From a virus, in UHGV virus genome UHGV-0997613: a stretch of 13,529 nt of DNA; one strand, 5' to 3'. Positions 2,730 to 10,198 of the stretch are shown here, one piece after another. The translations under genes were made by a program, and so were the position numbers. The notes beneath the pieces were generated by a model that had not been told where the DNA came from, did not search any database, and saw only the letters and a program-made list of their open reading frames with translations. Within the stretch, counting starts at the first letter, position 1; the number at the start of each line of letters is the position of its first letter.

Positions 2730-2765
2730 TTGCGAGTAATTGCGGAGACTTTGCGATGTACTTGA
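2730..2765 (+). promoter_or_regulatory. pI-like int promoter with a cII-type activator site (TTGC-N6-TTGC)
   Basis: TTGCgagtaaTTGC at 2730-2743, directly upstream of and overlapping the xis start. This matches the lambda pI arrangement, where the cII-dependent transcript begins inside xis so that Int is made without Xis. Confidence 0.5.
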
Positions 2766-2974
2766 CACTTCAGGAGTGGAACGCTCGCCAGCGACGCCCA
2801 AGAAGCCTTGAAACAGTTCGTCGATGGGTGCGCGAATGCAGGATATTCCCTCCTCCGGTTAAGGATGGAAGAGAGTATCTGTTCCACGAATCAGCGGTAA
2901 AGGTTGACTTAAATCGACCAGTAACAGGTGGCCTTTTGAAGAGGATCAGAAATGGGAAGAAGGCGAAGTCATGA
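2756..2974 (+). CDS. xis: Excisionase Xis (lambda/HK022 type)
   Basis: 72-aa protein MYLTLQEWNARQRRPRSLETVRRWVRECRIFPPPVKDGREYLFHESAVKVDLNRPVTGGLLKRIRNGKKAKS, matching my recollection of lambda Xis. It overlaps the int start by 23 nt, as in lambda. Confidence 0.9.
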   Translation: MYLTLQEWNARQRRPRSLETVRRWVRECRIFPPPVKDGREYLFHESAVKVDLNRPVTGGLLKRIRNGKKAKS

Positions 2975-4025
2975 GCGCCGGGATTTACCCCCTAACCTTT
3001 ATATAAGAAACAATGGATATTACTGCTACAGGGACCCAAGGACGGGTAAAGAGTTTGGATTAGGCCGAGACAGGAGGATAGCAATCACTGAAGCAATACA
3101 GGCCAATATTGAGTTACTCTCAAACAGCGGACGCAAATCACTGATAGACAGAATTAAAGGCGGTGACGCAATCACTCTTCATGTGTGGCTTGACCGATAT
3201 GAAAGAATCCTCACCGAAAGGGGGATCAGGCCGAAAACTCTACTCGACTACGCCAGCAAAATCAGGGCAATCCGAAGAAAATTGCCGGACAAACCGCTCA
3301 CTGACATATCAACGAAAGATGTGGCAGCAATGCTAAACACCTACGTAGCGGAAGGTAAAGCAGCTTCCGCAAAATTAATCAGGTCAACCCTTGTTGACGT
3401 TTTTCGTGAAGCAATAGCCGAGGGGCATGTGGCAACGAATCCGGTAACAGCAACCCGTACAGCAAAGTCAGAAGTAAGGCGCTCAAGGCTGACAGCTAAT
3501 GAGTATGTCGAGATTTACCATGCAGCCGAACCTCTCCCTATCTGGCTAAGGCTGGCGATGGATTTGGCCGTCGTTACAGGGCAGAGAGTCGGCGATTTGT
3601 GCAGAATGAAATGGTCAGACATAAACGACAACCATCTTCACATTGAACAGAGTAAAACAGGGGCTAAACTCGCCATTCCGCTAACGCTAACGATTGACGC
3701 GCTCAATATCTCATTGGCTGATACACTACAGAAATGCAGGGAGGCCAGCAGCAGTGAAACTATAATCGCATCAAAGCATCACGATCCGCTTTCCCCGAAA
3801 ACAGTATCAAAGTATTTTACAAAGGCGAGAAATGCATCTGGACTCTCATTTGATGGAAACCCGCCAACATTCCATGAACTGCGTAGCCTGTCAGCGAGGC
3901 TATACCGGAACCAGATTGGCGATAAGTTTGCTCAACGTCTTCTCGGGCATAAATCAGATTCAATGGCGGCGCGGTATAGGGACAGCCGTGGACGGGAATG
4001 GGACAAAATTGAAATCGACAAATGA
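2952..4025 (+). CDS. int: Tyrosine integrase, lambda family with HK022-type core specificity
   Basis: 357 aa, collinear with lambda Int (MGRRRSHERRDLPPNLYIRNNGYYCYRDPRTGKEFGLGRDRRIAITEAIQANIEL..., ends REWDKIEIDK). The catalytic region includes HELRSLSARLY and LLGHKSD. Residues at the lambda/HK022 specificity positions read P-K...K and R (PLSPKTVSKYF; ARLYRNQ), which is HK022-like from memory. Confidence 0.95.
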   Translation: MGRRRSHERRDLPPNLYIRNNGYYCYRDPRTGKEFGLGRDRRIAITEAIQANIELLSNSGRKSLIDRIKGGDAITLHVWLDRYERILTERGIRPKTLLDYASKIRAIRRKLPDKPLTDISTKDVAAMLNTYVAEGKAASAKLIRSTLVDVFREAIAEGHVATNPVTATRTAKSEVRRSRLTANEYVEIYHAAEPLPIWLRLAMDLAVVTGQRVGDLCRMKWSDINDNHLHIEQSKTGAKLAIPLTLTIDALNISLADTLQKCREASSSETIIASKHHDPLSPKTVSKYFTKARNASGLSFDGNPPTFHELRSLSARLYRNQIGDKFAQRLLGHKSDSMAARYRDSRGREWDKIEIDK

Positions 4026-4026
4026 T

Positions 4027-4255
4027 TTTATTTTGACTAATAATGACCTGCTTACATTAATTCATTGATAACAAAAGATATTTTAAATATACAACTTATT
4101 CACCTAAAGGATGACAAAATCACATAAATAATTTAAAAATCATAGCATTAGATTACTTAATGATTAAATAATAGACTGCAAAACGCGACAAAACACAACA
4201 TATCCAGTCACTATGAATCAACCACTTAGATAGTATTAGTGACCTGTAACAGAGC
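4027..4255. other. attP: Phage attachment site attP (intact P'-core-P): lambda-like arm sites, HK022-like core
   Basis: Directly after the int stop, TTTTATTTTGACTAATAATGACCTG matches the lambda P' arm sites and ATTGATAAC is an IHF-like site. The core region ACAACTTATTCACCTAAAGG (about 4092-4113) contains the reverse complement of AGGTGAA. The P arm at 4190-4252 (AAAACACAACATATCCAGTCACTATGAATCAACCACTTAGATAGTATTAGTGACCTGTAACAG) is near-identical to the reverse complement of the lambda P arm as I remember it. Confidence 0.75.
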
Positions 4256-4297
4256 ATTAGCGCAAGGTGATTTTTTGTCTTCTTGCGCTAATTTTTT
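4256..4297 (+). terminator. sib/tI-like hairpin distal to attP (candidate int retroregulation site and terminator)
   Basis: Perfect 11-bp inverted repeat ATTAGCGCAAG (4256-4266) and CTTGCGCTAAT (4282-4292), followed by TTTTT (4293-4297), on the int-sense strand just beyond the P arm. Confidence 0.5.
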
Positions 4298-4457
4298 GTC
4301 ATCAAAACCTGTCGCACTCCAGAGACGCACAAAGCCTTGCAATCCAGTGCAAAGATTTGTGTGTTTAAATTTTGTCTAAGCATTCTAGTGAAAACATAGT
4401 AAAATCAGTAACGGCTGGAAATCATTCAATACTCGCACTATCGAAAGTTAACCAGCC

Positions 4458-4500
4458 AGCCGCAGTATCCTATCATGACAAGTTACTGCGGCTTTTTATA
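4458..4500 (+). terminator. Intrinsic terminator-like hairpin in the attP-tailspike spacer
   Basis: 10-bp stem AGCCGCAGTA (4458-4467) with TACTGCGGCT (4484-4493), then TTTTATATTT. The T-run is on the + strand. It lies 120 nt below the tailspike stop, so it may also act on the convergent late transcript. Confidence 0.45.
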
Positions 4501-4616
4501 TTTAACGGCTCAACAGCCAGATCAGCGGGCACACCACCAACGGCATAGAAAAATCCATCAGGCTTGCCATATCCCACGCACGTGCTGACATCCTCCATAC
4601 CATGCAGAACGGGGTT

Positions 4617-6767
4617 TTACGGCGCACTGGATAAAATAGACTTCGTCTTCGTAACAATAACATCTACAAAATCACCTGCAGATATAGCTGATGGTACTGT
4701 ATCTGCAAGAGTAATCTTTCCTGAAGAGATGCTTTGCACATCCAATAATTTATTTTCAATCCCATCCGTATATACCAATTTGATATCACTGAATGGAGGG
4801 TAATAAGTAATGGCCCCTTGGTATACATATATTTCACTGCCTGAAATTGATTTCACTACATACCTTCCCCTTACAAGATTAATTTTGAGTTCAGATAAAT
4901 CTGTTTTATAACAGGTAATTCCTGAACCAATGTTAGCAATACTAATATCAGTATCACTATGATAAGTAATTGCTTTACCTTGCTTTAAAGTAAAAGTATT
5001 TTTACTTTTCCTTGGTAAGGATGTGCTATTTTTGTAATATCTACCAGTTAAGCATAGCCATGAAAATGCAGTATTCACTACATTACCACCAGAATACACA
5101 GCTAAACGAATTGCACTAACTGGAACTCCTTCATTATTAATCCTGATCTTAATGGAAGAAATATTAGTAGCAGTTCCATATCTATGGTTAGCAGAATCCC
5201 ATTGCATCGAAGAAGTTATGGCTTCTGTTTGTGAGGTTATGACATTCCCGTCTCCATCTAATGCATACAGGTAAATGCGAAACGATGCCGTATCTGCTGA
5301 GAATGTAAACATATCACCATTTCTTACTGGTATATCTCCCGATTCCCATAAAAGCCCAAAATCCCTCATAAAAGCAAACTTAGAAGAAACCAGGTGACGG
5401 ATATTATATAAACCATCTACATCTGTTTGATATGCTAATACACCAACTTCTCCATTGTTAGCACTGGATATAAATGGGGTGTTAGCATTTAAAGAAAACA
5501 ATGTTACTTCATCGGATATATTTTCCTGAATATGAAATACTGCATTCCCCTTGCCATTATCAGTTACCTCGACATAAGTGTAAGGTGATGGATTGTATGG
5601 CTCATTTGTATACGCAGGAGATGAAAGCCATGTAGCTTCAATTGAGTTATTCCACGTATATTCACCAAAGTTAATTATCAACTGTTGGTTAGTTGGGGAT
5701 GATGGATATCGTTCAAAACGAAACCCGTAGAAGTAATTGTTATCACCTCTTTGAATATCAATTTTACCTGCCCCCTCCATAGTTCCACCATAAAACTTAT
5801 TGTGGTTATGATGATATGGATTATCAGCGAAAATGATATTATTCGTACGATTCAGATAAAAATAGTTTTCATTTATCCATCCTTTCTCAACTCCAAGAAA
5901 ATGAATTGTATCGACCTTTTTCAGGTTAAAGGTTGAGTATGCTATTGAATAATCCGTCGATGCCACCGAAGCATTATAATTTGCATATAACTGTAAGTAG
6001 TCGCAACGCTCAATGTTTATATGCTGCCCTTTTGCCCCGATAATACGAATATCCGGTGTCGTTTCAGATGAAATACCAGAATTTCTGATAATCGTTCCGA
6101 AGTTTTGTCTTGGGTTGTTAGGGTTTGATGCATTCCCGCCAAGCAATACCCCTATTCCTGAGTGGGATATGGTAAAAACAGCATTGGTCATTTCGAGGCT
6201 GACATTACGAAGATTTAATGTCTCCGTAATAATAAAATTACCTTCCGCTCGTAATGTTCTGGATGATTCTCGTGCATATTCTGCAGCCAGGATCAATGCA
6301 GATGTATCATCTGTTATACCATCTCCTTTTGCCCCCCACCCTCTTACATCACAATCGTCCCTCCACCGAGATATCTGCAATTCAGGGTATTTTTTAGCTC
6401 CATCCTGGTCTTCTAATTGCTGCCGTAGTTGATCAGGGTCATACTTCAGCACATTAGGAAAATAGAACTGCTGCACACCATACGCATCGTATACAGCCAT
6501 CGAATGGCCTTGCACAGTTACGAATTTGGCAATCTGTCCATTATATACAGGGTAACCAGCAGCGTTAATGATGATTGGTTGCGATACAGGAACGTGAGAG
6601 CCGTCTTCGTTCTCCACATAAACCTGCACTTGATTCTGTGGGAGCGTGGGATCGGAATCTATCTTACCAATGAATATCTTGCCATTGCTTGCTGCCTGGA
6701 ATTTTCTGGCTAACGTAAATAGTTGACTTGGCATTGAAATTATAACATTTGGCACAATATTTGACAT
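4617..6767 (-). CDS. Tailspike protein: P22-type head-binding N-terminal domain fused to a right-handed beta-helix receptor-binding domain (pectate-lyase-like)
   Basis: 716 aa. The first ~115 residues (SMPSQLFT...[72 protein letters not shown]...NVLKYDPDQ) match the P22 gp9 head-binding domain pattern. The remainder begins [16 protein letters not shown], typical of pectate-lyase-3-like beta-helix domains, and is markedly AT-rich. Confidence 0.9.
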
Positions 6768-6793
6768 AGTGAATCTCTATTTAAGGAATGAAT

Positions 6794-7282
6794 ATGATTA
6801 CTCATAAAGAATTAACCTCTTCACTCAACTACAACCCAGAAACAGGCGTCTTCACTTGGAAGATAGCTTCTGGTAGCTCCAGTATCGGAAAGGTTGCTGG
6901 ATTTAAGACGAACTCACAGGCCGACTACTTATCAATACGGATTAATGGAAAATCGTATCTTTGCCACCGACTTGCTTGGTTTTATATGAAAGGATGCTGG
7001 CCTAAAGGGTTAATTGACCATATTAACGGGGTTAAAAATGACAATAGAATTTCAAACCTAAGAGAAGTAACCAGAGGTCAGAATAAAACCAACAGCGTTT
7101 CATCATCCAATACAGGTATAAAAGGAGTTCACCTTCTTAAAGGGAAAAACACATATAAAGTTATGTTCAAACTAAAAGGTAAGTCTATTTGCCTTGGGTA
7201 TACCGATGATATTGAGCTGGCCGAATTAATGTCTATTGCATTCAGGGAAAAATATCATGGCGAGTTTGCTTGTTTTAGATAA
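6794..7282 (+). CDS. HNH homing endonuclease with a C-terminal AP2-type DNA-binding domain
   Basis: ORF 6788..7282; ATG at 6794 is the likely start, with AAGGAA at 6783-6788. HNH_3-type motif CHRLAWFYMKGCWPKGLIDHINGVKNDNRISNLREVTRGQN and AP2-like GIKGVHLLKGKNTYKVMFKLKGKSICLGYTDDIELAELMSIAFREKYHGEFA. AT-rich, and divergent from the tailspike with only about 26 bp between the start codons. Confidence 0.85.
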   Translation: MITHKELTSSLNYNPETGVFTWKIASGSSSIGKVAGFKTNSQADYLSIRINGKSYLCHRLAWFYMKGCWPKGLIDHINGVKNDNRISNLREVTRGQNKTNSVSSSNTGIKGVHLLKGKNTYKVMFKLKGKSICLGYTDDIELAELMSIAFREKYHGEFACFR

Positions 7283-7350
7283 TGTCTGTCATTTAATTTG
7301 CTCCAGATGCAAGGAATCGCCGCAGCGTGGCTACGGTGAATTTTGGGCAT

Positions 7351-7374
7351 AAAAAAACCCAGCCGAAGCTGGGT
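7351..7374 (-). terminator. Rho-independent terminator downstream of ant (T_ant equivalent)
   Basis: ACCCAGC-CGAA-GCTGGGT stem. On the minus strand it is followed by TTTTTTT (the A7 tract at 7351-7357). It may also act weakly on the + strand for the HNH gene. Confidence 0.7.
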
Positions 7375-7392
7375 CGTTGCGTTGGTTATCTG

Positions 7393-8322
7393 TCAGTAGT
7401 TATGTACTGAAGGAGGTAATTCTTTATTCTTAAGTCTTATCCATGCAGAAAGATTCGTTGGTCCGTCTGGCTCATTGATATCAACATCTCGTGTGTGATT
7501 AATTAAAACATCTCTCGCCATTCCGATAACATACGAGAACTCATGACCGTAGTCGTAGCATCTGCCGGAATAGTTCGATTGAATTTGTTTTAGCGCCGGA
7601 TACAGTTCGCGGAATAATGCCTGTGAGCGGTTGGCATAATCCCATAACCATACAAGGCTGTTTGCTTCTTTTGCAGAAAGCTCGTTGGTTTTCTTCTCTT
7701 GTTTGCCAATGAACTCACCTTCAAGTGGAACTCGAGCTGCAAGTGACAGTGCTTCTGTAAACTGCTCCTCACTGATTTCTTTGTACGAACATCCAAAATG
7801 GGATTTCAGTGACGACCACATGGTAATCATTGCCTTCGCCTGTTTTTCTTTTGGCAGAGACTGACCGCGACTCATGACGAGTTGTTTAATGGCTTCCTGC
7901 TGTTCAGTGGTGATTTTACCCGGCAACGCTTTTTTAGCTTTGCGTGGGTTAACTACATGGCCTTTAGTCCAGTACTCGTAGAGTACATCGTCACACTCTT
8001 CCTGATACTGGATTACCTTGTCGCGGATTTCAGGGCGGACTTTGTTAGGGCTGATGGTTTGCAGCCAACCTGCAAGTTTGCGTAAAGCAAGACAGATAAC
8101 CAGACGACGCTGAGTATCGCCGGGGAGCTGAATCATCATTTCGATGATGCAGGTCTTAAATCTCTCCATCAACTTGCGGTGTTGAGACTGCCAAGTCATG
8201 CCCATTCCCTCAACGATAGGTTTCATTGGGGTGTACGGTTCGCCGTTGTGATTGACAACATAAAGCTCTGCGCCGTGGAATGGCACATTGATAGTAGATA
8301 CTGCTGTTGCTATACTTTTCAT
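7393..8322 (-). CDS. ant: Antirepressor Ant (P22 immI type)
   Basis: Large ORF in the P22 immI position after arc. ATG at 8322 ([30 protein letters not shown]...) has AGGAA 8 nt upstream. The ORF track extends to a GTG at 8388, which overlaps the stop of the 73-codon ORF and is a possible alternative start. Confidence 0.85.
8288..8316 (+). promoter_or_regulatory. Psar-like promoter inside the 5' end of ant, antisense orientation
   Basis: TTGATA (8288-8293), 17-bp spacer, TATACT (8311-8316). The predicted start near 8323 points across the ant ribosome-binding site. Confidence 0.5.
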
Positions 8323-8395
8323 GTCAATATTTCCTAAGACGATTTGTTGATACCGAAGCCCTGACTGTTCCAGCAGTTGGGGCTTCACTGTTTTT
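8323..8395 (+). ncRNA. sar: sar-like small antisense RNA (about 70 nt) complementary to the ant translation-initiation region
   Basis: The Psar-like promoter is followed about 32 nt later by an intrinsic terminator: stem GAAGCCCT (8355-8362) with GGGGCTTC (8379-8386), then ACTGTTTTTGT. The length and position agree with what is described for P22 sar RNA. Confidence 0.5.
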
Positions 8396-9100: not shown

Positions 9101-9107
9101 GCGGGTT
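9088..9107. terminator. Bidirectional terminator shared by convergent mnt and the toxin operon
   Basis: AACCCGC-GATTAA-GCGGGTT stem flanked by an A6 tract on one side. This gives TTTTTTCTTT on the minus strand and TTT on the + strand. The mnt stop codon lies in the loop and the toxin gene stop abuts the stem. Confidence 0.6.
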
Positions 9108-9556
9108 TAGTCAAACATAGTGTTTCTAAAGTCTCTCGCATACCCTGCTAACACTCTCATTCTATTATGATTGTTAGCAGACATGTGAGCTACAGGGTGA
9201 AAAAGAGCAATCAATGAATACCTGTTCTCATCAAAAAGATTTTGTGCATAAACGAGAGCGGTATTGGATGTTTTATGCCACTGCAACTTTTGCGGTGTGC
9301 TGATATCTGTGCCATTTTTTATTGGCTCAAATTTATTTTCACCAATTGCTAAATGAAGGTGCATAAGACCTGCATCTTCAATATCAGGAGGCCGATGATA
9401 AGAGGTGTCTCTGCCAAAATAGCTGGGCAACGTTCCCGTAGACTTGTAGATGATAAAATCATCTACAAGTGTTTGTTTTAAATCAGGAAACTCAACAAAA
9501 ACCGGGGAGAAAAAATAGTCAAAACTATCCTGATTATATTCCACGGTTACTTGCAT
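9107..9556 (-). CDS. YafO-family toxin homologue (putative ribosome-dependent mRNA interferase)
   Basis: 149 aa. Segments FIIYKSTGTLPSYFGRD, MHLHLAIGENKFEP and LVYAQNLFDENRYSLIALFHPVAHMSANNHNRMRVLAGYARDFR align with E. coli YafO (FISYKRDGVLPDIFGRD; HIHLANENNPFP; LVYCQGAFDEQAWLLIAILKPEPHKLARDNNQMHKIGKMAEAFR) as I remember it. GAGGT lies 5 nt upstream of the ATG and overlaps the upstream gene's TGA. Confidence 0.65.
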   Translation of the reverse strand: MQVTVEYNQDSFDYFFSPVFVEFPDLKQTLVDDFIIYKSTGTLPSYFGRDTSYHRPPDIEDAGLMHLHLAIGENKFEPIKNGTDISTPQKLQWHKTSNTALVYAQNLFDENRYSLIALFHPVAHMSANNHNRMRVLAGYARDFRNTMFD

Positions 9557-9564
9557 GTTTTACC

Positions 9565-10131
9565 TCAGTGGAAGTTACCAGAGTGAAACACACGAGTCCC
9601 GTGCTCAGCAAGCGCACGCAAACCAGCCATATCTACGGAACTATCAAAAACAACCGGAACACATGAGCGTTGTTTAATAAGACTATTCAGGTTAGTTACG
9701 GCAGATCTAGCATCAGCAACAACGATATAGATATCTCTTGCGATCTCTTTAAAATCAGCAGAAGCTTCTTTGAATACCGATTTCATTGCCCCTTCAAGTC
9801 CTCTCAATTGATGCTCTATCAATCGAGACTTTTCTGGTTCAATGATAGACAACACATTGTCTACATTCTCATCGGTAGCGTTTGCAAGAACACGATAAGC
9901 GTATTTCAGCATTCGAGACAATTCTTTAATCGAAGACACCGCCTCATGAAGCTCATCATTAGCCCGTTCACTGCTGAATGAGGATTGATGGTAAGCGTGC
10001 TGAACGTTATCAGTAACAACCACCTCACAACTGAACGCAGAAGCTTGCTGTAATAGCAAACCTATTGCGACTCCAGCTTTGGCAGCGTTCAAGCTAAACA
10101 TTTCATCAATCCCATTAGTCTCATTGCTCAT
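9565..10131 (-). CDS. Hypothetical 188-aa protein, first gene of the toxin operon (candidate non-canonical antitoxin or partner)
   Basis: ATG at 10131 (MSNETNGIDEMF...) has AAGGAGG 5 nt upstream; the ORF-track start at 10161 lacks a Shine-Dalgarno. Predicted mostly helical. No similarity to YafN, RelB or Phd-type antitoxins that I can see. Confidence 0.6.
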   Translation of the reverse strand: MSNETNGIDEMFSLNAAKAGVAIGLLLQQASAFSCEVVVTDNVQHAYHQSSFSSERANDELHEAVSSIKELSRMLKYAYRVLANATDENVDNVLSIIEPEKSRLIEHQLRGLEGAMKSVFKEASADFKEIARDIYIVVADARSAVTNLNSLIKQRSCVPVVFDSSVDMAGLRALAEHGTRVFHSGNFH

Positions 10132-10198
10132 ACAAACCTCCTTCTTATCGGAGATTATCAATAGCTATGTATCCATTGAATACACGCTATGCGCAGTA

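What the first reader, a model, noticed from the sequence alone, without database searches (positions are those of the whole stretch)
4617..6767. Chimeric tailspike: conserved P22-type head-binding domain joined to a compositionally foreign beta-helix receptor-binding domain
The first ~115 residues follow the P22 gp9 N-terminal domain closely. From about residue 125 ([16 protein letters not shown]) the sequence switches to a pectate-lyase-like beta-helix, and the DNA becomes much more AT-rich (roughly 4800-6100). This marks a host-range module swap. The receptor specificity (an O-antigen or capsule depolymerase) cannot be read from the sequence.
Basis: partly seen in the sequence, partly recalled or inferred. 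Interest (0 to 1): 0.4.

Follow-up and report, generated by a model that had tools for sequence, protein, structure and literature searches.

The report
Mosaic P22-type tailspike, likely K4-capsule depolymerase
This is an ordinary modular phage tailspike (a conserved P22-type virion-attachment domain fused to a swapped-in beta-helix receptor domain), but the swapped domain is uncharacterised, and it occurs almost only in E. coli that carry a K4-type (chondroitin-like) capsule locus, which suggests what it targets.

Summary
The ORF at 4617-6767 lies on the minus strand and encodes 716 aa. Residues 1-113 are a P22 head-binding domain (Pfam E 2e-64). The rest has no Pfam hit, models confidently as a right-handed beta-helix plus C-terminal beta domains, and matches no characterised P22-like receptor domain.

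The module swap is shown directly. The same receptor domain is joined to at least three other N-terminal adaptors, and the same head-binding domain is joined to other receptor domains.

Two corrections:
- The sequence junction is a conserved linker (residues ~114-157, including [16 protein letters not shown]) shared with CUS-3 endosialidase and K5-lyase tailspikes.
- The AT-rich shift is modest (GC 0.43 to 0.35, p about 0.02). It starts near residue 270, not at the junction.

New findings:
- The closest characterised relative is Pasteurella phage PHB02 Dep-ORF8, a hyaluronan-capsule depolymerase (31% identity, all invariant polar residues kept).
- Of 15 complete E. coli genomes carrying this domain, 14 have a K4-type capsule locus found in only 2% of genomes (p ~1e-23), while their O-types differ.

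The likely target is therefore a chondroitin-type group 2 capsule. This is inferred, not shown. It is a new member of a known kind, of moderate interest.

The parts
4617..6767 (-). Tailspike gene, 716 aa plus stop. It sits in the gene 9 position of a P22-like phage.
   Evidence: ORF list and translation. It lies between ant/arc/mnt and DNA-transfer genes on one side and attP-int-xis on the other. E. coli prophage homologues are annotated 'phage head-binding domain-containing protein'.
6429..6767 (-). Head-binding (virion attachment) domain, residues 1-113.
   Evidence: PF09008 E 2.2e-64, full length 1-113/113. Sf6 gp14 E 2.4e-58 and P22 gp9 E 1e-42.
6627..6767 (-). First 141 nt of the gene: a distinct allele ([11 protein letters not shown]...) that travels with the upstream HNH gene.
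   Evidence: The closest full-length relatives match only from nt 142. The ET490 prophage shares window 6420-7725, which covers the ant end, HNH and the first 348 nt, at 97.6%.
6297..6428 (-). Conserved linker and first rung of the helix, residues ~114-157 ([46 protein letters not shown]). This is the zone where modules are joined.
   Evidence: The CUS-3 endosialidase tailspike is 83% identical over residues 1-158 and then unrelated. The K5-lyase-type tailspike 9vvr_A shares the segment YPELQ..RWRD..[14 protein letters not shown]. Homology with the 771-aa protein starts at residues ~134-145. Homology with ET490 ends at residue ~117.
5568..6296 (-). Right-handed parallel beta-helix, residues ~158-400, the presumed catalytic and binding body. 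It holds conserved motifs GWINEN (296-301), YHHNHN (318-323), MEG (330-332) and RFER (349-352).
4617..5567 (-). C-terminal beta-rich domains, residues 401-716, the most AT-rich part (GC3 0.24). They are more variable between relatives than the helix.
   Evidence: AF2 secondary structure and pLDDT. The 20AR0300 variant is 85% identical over residues 158-400 but 47% over 401-716.
6788..7282 (+). HNH endonuclease gene inserted between ant and the tailspike start, reading divergently. It is not part of the tailspike but is linked to its 5' allele.
   Evidence: PF13392 E 4e-15 and phrog_99 E 1e-60. Present in ET490 and absent in the 100117 prophage.
4026..4616 (.). Non-coding attP region between the tailspike stop and int. 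Homology to prophage right ends stops at about 4095.
   Evidence: The 100117 prophage matches window 4095-6626 and then abuts torT. No tRNA was found. The int/xis genes at 2756-4025 are lambda/HK022-type.

Best explanation
The gene encodes the tailspike of a P22-like temperate podovirus and is assembled from exchangeable modules.

Residues 1-113 dock the spike onto the tail (P22 gp9 head-binding domain). A conserved linker, residues ~114-157, acts as the joint where modules are exchanged by recombination. Residues ~158-716 form a beta-helix with C-terminal domains and are a receptor-binding depolymerase acquired horizontally.

That receptor module belongs to the family of Pasteurella phage PHB02 Dep-ORF8, a depolymerase of the hyaluronan capsule.

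In E. coli the module most likely recognises and cleaves a K4-type group 2 capsule. This capsule has a chondroitin-like backbone of GlcA-GalNAc, made by a K4CP-type polymerase. Cleaving it would let the phage tunnel through the capsule to the outer membrane, as CUS-3 does with the K1 capsule.

Shown here: the domain architecture, the fold class, the mosaic joints, the homology to Dep-ORF8, and the statistical co-occurrence with K4-type loci.

Inferred: that the capsule is the receptor, that the domain is enzymatically active, and the chemistry (lyase or hydrolase), which remains undecided.
For: Architecture and fold.

Module exchange:
- The same receptor module is found behind four kinds of N-terminus.
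- The same N-terminus is found in front of other receptor domains.

Family:
- PHROG 18162 covers the module at E 3e-298.
- PHB02 gp17 aligns over 97% of the module at 31% identity, E 1e-69.
- gp17 is the tail fibre called Dep-ORF8. The purified protein cleared lawns of all 31 capsular type A P. multocida strains but not capsule-minus mutants (PMC6090149).
- 16 invariant polar or aromatic residues are identical in Dep-ORF8: K246, Y277, W297, N299, E300, Y318, H320, N321, N323, E331, R350, E352, W380, N408, R497 and D504.

Target:
- 15 of 5426 complete E. coli genomes carry the module at >=95.9% nt identity.
- 14 of those 15 carry a kfoF-kfoG-like capsule segment that is present in only 110 of 5426 genomes. 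Fisher p = 1.3e-23, or 3e-20 after collapsing obvious clones.
- The loci are group 2 kps loci at pheV with a K4CP-type polymerase.
  - In strain 23CRST013 the polymerase matches PDB 2z86 with no mismatch in the printed alignment, and the gene order is the canonical K4 order.
  - In types A and B it scores about 1128 bits against 2z86 (roughly 80% identity, read off the printed alignments).
  - In S87 it scores 825 bits.
- The carriers span at least four O-antigen clusters: O166, O120, an rml+wecB type, and others.
- They also span two unrelated prophage backbones.
- Both genomes with diverged variants of the module (20AR0300 and N1131) also carry a K4-type locus.
- Hyaluronan and chondroitin differ only in the C4 epimer of the hexosamine (established chemistry), so the Pasteurella relative fits this target.
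Against: - No biochemical data exist for this protein. The capsule link is a correlation across lysogens.
- One carrier, W46, has a K2-like glycerol-phosphate capsule locus instead.
- The carriers' K4-type loci differ in decoration genes: fructosylation genes in K4 proper, a pyruvyl transferase in type B, none in type A, and no epimerase in S87. One domain would therefore have to tolerate several side-chain states or recognise the backbone.
- Vectreviruses PDP21_P3/P5/P6 carry a 48%-identical homologue next to a K5 lyase. They plaque on K5 strain ECOR-11 but not on three K4-typed strains. The family is therefore not uniformly K4-specific.
- O166 is also enriched among carriers, 3 of 15, p 1e-5.
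Confidence: 0.6

Rival explanations
1. The domain is an O-antigen-specific endoglycosidase, as in P22, Sf6 and HK620. The capsule association would then be a by-product.
For: This is the default function of P22-like tailspikes (established knowledge). O166 is enriched among carriers: 3 of 15 against 18 of 5426, p 1.4e-5. The same holds for the rml+wecB O-type, 3 of 15 against 13 genomes.
Against: Carriers of a 96-99% identical domain have at least four different O-antigen clusters with unrelated sugar-pathway genes. The K-locus association is far stronger, 14 of 15. The window has no gtr or O-antigen conversion genes next to the spike. The only characterised relative acts on a capsule.
Confidence: 0.12
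2. The co-occurrence with K4-type loci reflects shared ecology or ancestry of hosts and prophages, not receptor use. The real receptor would be another glycan such as colanic acid, ECA or an unknown polysaccharide, or the domain binds without cleaving.
For: Many carriers come from a few enteric sampling projects and some are clonal pairs (100117/100248 and AST20/AST240). W46 lacks the K4-type locus. The PDP21 homologue does not give K4 tropism.
Against: Carriers come from humans, a dog and a prawn on several continents. They have four K4-type locus variants, at least four O-types and two prophage backbones, and the K4-type locus is the one feature found shared by 14 of the 15. A ubiquitous receptor such as ECA or colanic acid would not give a 2% host subset.
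Confidence: 0.18
3. The AT-rich composition marks a very recent import from a low-GC donor such as Pasteurellaceae or Vibrionaceae, with the composition boundary as the recombination joint.
For: Relatives occur in Pasteurella, Vibrio and Aeromonas phages or genomes. GC falls to 0.35.
Against: The composition change point (~residue 270) coincides with none of the homology breakpoints (~117, ~134-158, ~440). The E. coli copies are only 31-48% identical to non-E. coli relatives, so any transfer is old. Other accessory genes in the window are just as AT-rich.
Confidence: 0.1

Closest known systems
P22 gp9, Sf6 gp14 and HK620 gp9 tailspikes (P22-like podoviruses)
   Different: There is no sequence similarity after residue ~120. 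Those spikes are O-antigen endoglycosidases, whereas this one associates with a capsule locus and not with an O-type.
CUS-3 endosialidase tailspike (K1-specific P22-like prophage of E. coli RS218)
   Same: 83% identical over residues 1-158, including the linker and the GWGA.GDG..DDTSAL motif. It is the precedent for a P22-like phage that uses a group 2 capsule as receptor.
   Different: The receptor domain is an endosialidase, unrelated in sequence after residue 158. Its target is polysialic acid.
Pasteurella phage PHB02 Dep-ORF8 (gp17 tail fibre), in PHROG 18162
   Same: Homologous over 97% of the receptor module (31% identity), with all invariant polar residues conserved. It is an experimentally active depolymerase of a GlcA-HexNAc capsule (hyaluronan, P. 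multocida type A).
   Different: It is a 968-aa protein with a T7-type N-terminal adaptor on a lytic Autographivirus. The host genus differs and the substrate has GlcNAc rather than GalNAc. Its catalytic mechanism was not determined either.
Second tailspike of Vectrevirus PDP21_P3/P6 (E. coli ST69 K5 host)
   Same: 48% identical over 96% of the module. It is a tailspike on a capsule-dependent type of phage.
   Different: It has a short N-terminus (598 aa) and sits directly after a KflA-type K5 lyase gene. The phages plaque on a K5 strain and not on three K4-typed strains, so its own target is unknown.
K5 lyase tailspikes (KflA 2x3h; 9vvr_A)
   Same: 9vvr_A shares the linker motif YPELQ.xRWRD..[14 protein letters not shown]. 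Both act on GlcA-containing group 2 capsules (for the window protein this is inferred).
Beta-helix polysaccharide lyases and epimerases acting on uronic-acid polymers (RbmB 9ozd, alginate epimerase/lyase 8ja4, chondroitinase B 1dbg)
   Different: Identity is 12-16% and no shared catalytic motif was demonstrated, so membership in any PL family is not established.

Membership tests
P22-like tailspike (gp9 family) | N-terminal head-binding domain PF09008 | tested here: met
   E 2.2e-64, covering 1-113 of 113 profile positions. Solved Sf6 and P22 homologues match.
P22-like tailspike (gp9 family) | Gene located after the immI region (arc/mnt/ant) and DNA-transfer genes, next to att-int, in a P22-like genome | tested here: met
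   ORFs and Pfam hits of the neighbours. Matching P22-like phages and prophages.
P22-like tailspike (gp9 family) | Central right-handed parallel beta-helix | tested here: met
P22-like tailspike (gp9 family) | Homotrimer with interdigitated C-terminus | not tested
   Only a monomer was modelled.
P22-like tailspike (gp9 family) | O-antigen endoglycosidase activity | tested here: inconclusive
   Not testable directly. Carriers of the same domain have at least four O-antigen clusters, which argues against O-antigen specificity.
Characterised P22-like receptor domains (P22, Sf6, HK620, CUS-3) | Sequence homology of residues >160 to one of them | tested here: not met
   phmmer against PDB gives only N-terminal matches. 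megablast against phages matches only nt 142-470. CUS-3 homology ends at residue 158.
Dep-ORF8-like capsule depolymerase (PHROG 18162) | Full-length homology of the receptor module to the family | tested here: met
   phrog_18162 E 2.8e-298 over residues 16-593 of the module. tblastn to PHB02 gp17 gives 31% identity over 97%, E 1e-69.
Dep-ORF8-like capsule depolymerase (PHROG 18162) | Conservation of the family's invariant polar residues | tested here: met
   25 columns are invariant in 33 sequences. 19 of these 25 positions, including the 16 polar or aromatic residues named in the For line, are identical in Dep-ORF8.
Dep-ORF8-like capsule depolymerase (PHROG 18162) | Capsule-dependent depolymerase activity | not testable with these tools
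   Shown only for Dep-ORF8 (PMC6090149). For this protein there is only co-occurrence with K4-type loci.
Pectate lyase superfamily (Pfam PF12708 Pectate_lyase_3 / PF13229 Beta_helix) | Pfam profile match | tested here: not met
   No hit at E<=1. Only the GAKGDGxTDDT cap motif aligns to such proteins. The fold is nevertheless of this class.
K5 lyase (KflA) tailspikes | Sequence homology of the catalytic body | tested here: not met
   Only the linker matches 9vvr_A. 2x3h is not a sequence hit. In PDP21_P6 the KflA homologue is a separate, neighbouring gene.

The most novel reading that the evidence does not exclude
The receptor module would be the first identified phage depolymerase for the E. 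coli K4 / chondroitin-type capsule. Together with Pasteurella Dep-ORF8, it would define a beta-helix enzyme family specialised on glycosaminoglycan-like capsules, with a conserved Y-x-H-N-x-N / GWxNEN / RFER active-site signature that belongs to no described lyase or hydrolase family.
Probability: 0.45. Interest if true: 0.55.

Novelty: new member of a known kind. Interest (0 to 1): 0.4.

Why it matters
Tailspike module swapping is textbook knowledge, so the chimera itself adds little.

The useful part is the candidate specificity. No K4-capsule phage depolymerase turned up in the searched literature. K4 and K4-like capsules occur in ExPEC and, as seen here, in ETEC lineages such as O166:H15. 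K4 polysaccharide is also an industrial source of chondroitin.

An enzyme that binds or cleaves this backbone would be useful in three ways:
- as a capsule-typing reagent;
- as a possible anti-virulence tool;
- as a tool for making chondroitin oligosaccharides.

The case also shows that a tailspike's likely receptor can be inferred from which surface-polysaccharide loci its lysogens share.

Tried and rejected
- Pfam on the receptor module gave no family.
- Sequence and profile searches of PDB matched only the N-terminal domain and the GAKGDG cap motif.
- megablast against phage records found no phage with the module at DNA level.
- O-antigen as receptor was tested by locating the O clusters of three carriers and searching them against all genomes. 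O166, an rml+wecB type and O120 each explain only 1-3 of the 15 carriers. A single O-type was therefore rejected.
- Host-range data of the Vectrevirus homologue (Gaborieau et al. preprint supplements) showed plaques on a K5 strain and none on three K4 strains. This gives no support for K4 tropism of that 48% homologue. Only 3 of the 11 K4 strains were looked up.
- The idea that the homologue in PDP21_P6 is itself the K5 lyase was rejected. A separate KflA-type ORF sits upstream.
- tRNA scan of the window found none.
- The promoter and terminator scan around the gene found nothing above shuffled expectation.
- The composition boundary as the recombination joint was rejected, because the breakpoints and the change point do not coincide.
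- A literature search for a K4-specific phage depolymerase found none in the held library.
- The C-terminal domains (residues 401-716) were not searched separately for fold.

Full report
WHAT IS THERE

The window is part of a P22-like temperate phage in its excised (attP) form. The genes, in window order, are:
- xis (2756-2974, +) and a lambda/HK022-type int (2952-4025, +);
- a 590-nt non-coding stretch;
- the 716-aa ORF at 4617-6767 on the minus strand;
- an HNH endonuclease gene (6788-7282, +);
- ant (7393-8388, -);
- two Arc-family repressor genes, a YafO-type toxin gene and a membrane-protein gene;
- DNA-transfer genes.

The window is a mosaic of known E. coli and Salmonella P22-like phages and prophages, and no record covers more than 45% of it.

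OBSERVATION CHECK

N-terminal domain:
- Residues 1-113 match Pfam Head_binding end to end, E 2.2e-64.
- They match solved tailspikes: Sf6 gp14 at E 2.4e-58 and P22 gp9 at E 1e-42.

Receptor module:
- The remaining 600 residues have no Pfam family.
- By sequence, only the cap motif GAKGDGxTDDT aligns to solved beta-helix enzymes.
- An AlphaFold2 model built on 33 homologues has pLDDT mostly above 85 from residue 140 to the end.
- The model shows a helix to about residue 400, followed by about 300 residues of beta-rich C-terminal domains.

Composition:
- The shift exists but is smaller and located differently than described.
- GC is 0.425 for the head-binding domain, 0.46 for the linker, 0.41 for residues 158-272 and 0.35 for residues 273-716.
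- The best change point is near codon 256-272. It is reached by 23 of 1000 codon shuffles.
- Other accessory genes in the window are equally AT-rich.

THE MOSAIC IS DEMONSTRABLE

Among 5426 complete E. coli genomes, 11 carry nt 142-2151 of the gene at 96-98% identity in P22-like prophages. Four more carry nt 433-2143 at 96-99% inside a 771-aa protein. That protein belongs to a different prophage type with a DUF919 protein and a GH19 endolysin, integrated near yfgI.

The protein database adds further combinations:
- 757-aa versions with a PF18668 N-terminus;
- a 46%-identical Aeromonas protein with a tail-collar N-terminus;
- 598-600-aa Vectrevirus spikes.

Conversely, the same head-binding domain is attached to other receptor domains:
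- the E. coli ET490 prophage shares only residues 1-~117;
- the CUS-3 endosialidase tailspike shares residues 1-158 at 83% and is then unrelated.

A K5-lyase-type tailspike in PDB (9vvr_A) shares just the segment YPELQ..RWRD..[14 protein letters not shown]. Receptor domains are exchanged around it.

Two further internal boundaries exist:
- The first 141 nt are a separate allele. It travels with the upstream HNH gene. It is shared with ET490 and absent from the closest full-length relatives, which lack HNH.
- A diverged variant in strain 20AR0300 is 85% identical in the helix but 47% identical in the C-terminal domains.

WHAT THE RECEPTOR MODULE IS RELATED TO

PHROG 18162 ('tail fiber protein') covers the module at E 3e-298. 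In the 1.84-billion-representative library the family has 400 members at E<=1e-3 and 70 at E<=1e-30.

The only characterised relative found is gp17 of Pasteurella phage PHB02, at 31% identity over 97% of the module. It was published as Dep-ORF8. The purified protein gave translucent spots on all 31 capsular type A (hyaluronan) P. multocida strains tested. It gave none on capsule-deficient mutants (PMC6090149).

All 16 invariant polar or aromatic residues of the family are identical in Dep-ORF8. They include the motifs GWxNEN, YxHNHN, xEG and RFER. Whether the chemistry is beta-elimination or hydrolysis cannot be decided from these data.

WHAT IT PROBABLY TARGETS

I asked what the 15 lysogens have in common.

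Their O-antigen clusters differ:
- O166 in 3 carriers;
- an rmlBDAC+wecB cluster in 3;
- O120 in 1;
- none of these three in the other 8.

Their capsule loci do not differ in the same way:
- S87 carries the module at 99.3% identity. It has a group 2 kps locus at pheV whose region 2 encodes a UDP-sugar dehydrogenase and a 446-aa GT2.
- That two-gene segment occurs in only 110 of 5426 genomes, and 14 of the 15 carriers are among them.
- Fisher p is 1.3e-23, or 3e-20 after collapsing clonal pairs.
- Both genomes with diverged variants of the module also have it.

The loci are K4-type:
- 23CRST013 has the canonical K4 gene order. Its polymerase matches the K4 chondroitin polymerase structure 2z86 with no mismatch in the printed alignment over 625 residues.
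- 'Type A' covers 9 carriers, among them the O166 strains. It has kfoA-, B-, C-, F- and G-like genes but no kfoD/E-like genes.
- 'Type B' adds a pyruvyl transferase.
- The type A and type B polymerases score about 1128 bits against 2z86, roughly 80% identity judged from the printed alignments.
- The S87 polymerase scores 825 bits.

The one exception, W46, has a K2-like glycerol-phosphate region 2.

Chondroitin and hyaluronan differ only at C4 of the hexosamine, so a relative of a hyaluronan-capsule depolymerase is a plausible chondroitin-capsule depolymerase. CUS-3 is the precedent for a P22-like phage that uses a group 2 capsule.

CAVEATS

- All of the target evidence is correlation across lysogens.
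- One domain would have to cope with different decorations of the backbone.
- The 48%-identical second spike of Vectrevirus PDP21_P3/P5/P6 sits behind a genuine KflA-type K5 lyase. It gives no plaques on three K4-typed strains, while the phages do plaque on a K5 strain.

VERDICT

The finding is correct in substance and ordinary in kind: a new member of the well-known class of modular P22-like tailspikes. The added value is a specific and testable receptor hypothesis for an uncharacterised depolymerase family. No paper in the searchable library describes a K4-specific phage depolymerase.

Noticed in passing
window 6627-7282 (HNH 6788-7282 +; tailspike nt 1-141 = 6627-6767 -): An HNH endonuclease gene sits between ant and the tailspike start. 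Its presence goes with a divergent allele of the first 47 codons of the tailspike. The ET490 prophage shares both, while the 100117 prophage lacks HNH and has the other allele. This looks like a homing-endonuclease insertion with a co-conversion tract reaching into the head-binding domain.
   Followed up: partly
window 4026-4616, break at ~4095: The window is the excised attP form. Homology to prophage right ends stops at ~4095. In strains 100117 and PS_131_S11 the related prophage abuts torT. The int/xis region is 95% identical to HK022. This P22-like phage therefore carries an HK022-type integration module. From memory, the torS-torT region is the HK022 attB.
   Followed up: partly
window 6297-6428 (residues 114-157): The linker YPELQ.xRWRD..[19 protein letters not shown] is conserved in tailspikes with three unrelated receptor domains: this one, the CUS-3 endosialidase and the K5-lyase-type 9vvr_A. 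It is a candidate recombination hotspot for receptor-domain exchange.
   Followed up: partly
L004 9742-10026; L011 10742-11026; L012 8033-8320; L033 7033-7320; absent from window 4095-4616: In several other prophages a 94-95-aa predicted membrane protein gene directly follows the homologous tailspike. The window and the 100117 prophage lack it, and their tailspike instead ends four residues later (..SILSSAP). Its function is unknown.
   Followed up: no
L030 14124-22236 (100117), L031 9001-18247 (EC11), L029 24449-30993 (S87), L032 2193-15639 (23CRST013): E. coli has a small family of K4-related group 2 capsule loci: canonical K4, a type without the kfoD/E-like genes (18 genomes, including O166:H15 and other enteric isolates), a type with a pyruvyl transferase (about 27 genomes), and a singleton without the epimerase. 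All have K4CP-type polymerases. I did not check whether they correspond to named K antigens.
   Followed up: partly
L001 3870-7719 (Vectrevirus PDP21_P6): This K5-host Vectrevirus carries two consecutive spikes: a KflA-type K5 lyase (E=0 to 2x3h) and a 598-aa homologue of the window's receptor module. This mirrors the dual-spike layout of K1-5. The target of the second spike is unknown.
   Followed up: partly
L033 and L035 (E. coli W46): W46 is the only carrier of the module without a K4-type locus. Its kps region 2 is glycerol-phosphate type (K2-like), and its prophage lies next to intS/argW. Either the capsule locus was replaced after lysogeny or this is a true exception.
   Followed up: no
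window 9107-9556 (-) and 9565-10161 (-): A YafO-type toxin gene (PF13957, E 3e-22), with an upstream 198-aa ORF of no known family, lies in the immI region. It may be a toxin-antitoxin or defence moron.
   Followed up: no
window 5445-5568 region (residues ~400-441): The 20AR0300 variant tailspike keeps DNA homology up to nt 1323. Its protein is 85% identical in the helix and 47% identical in the C-terminal domains. This indicates a further exchange boundary inside the receptor module.
   Followed up: partly
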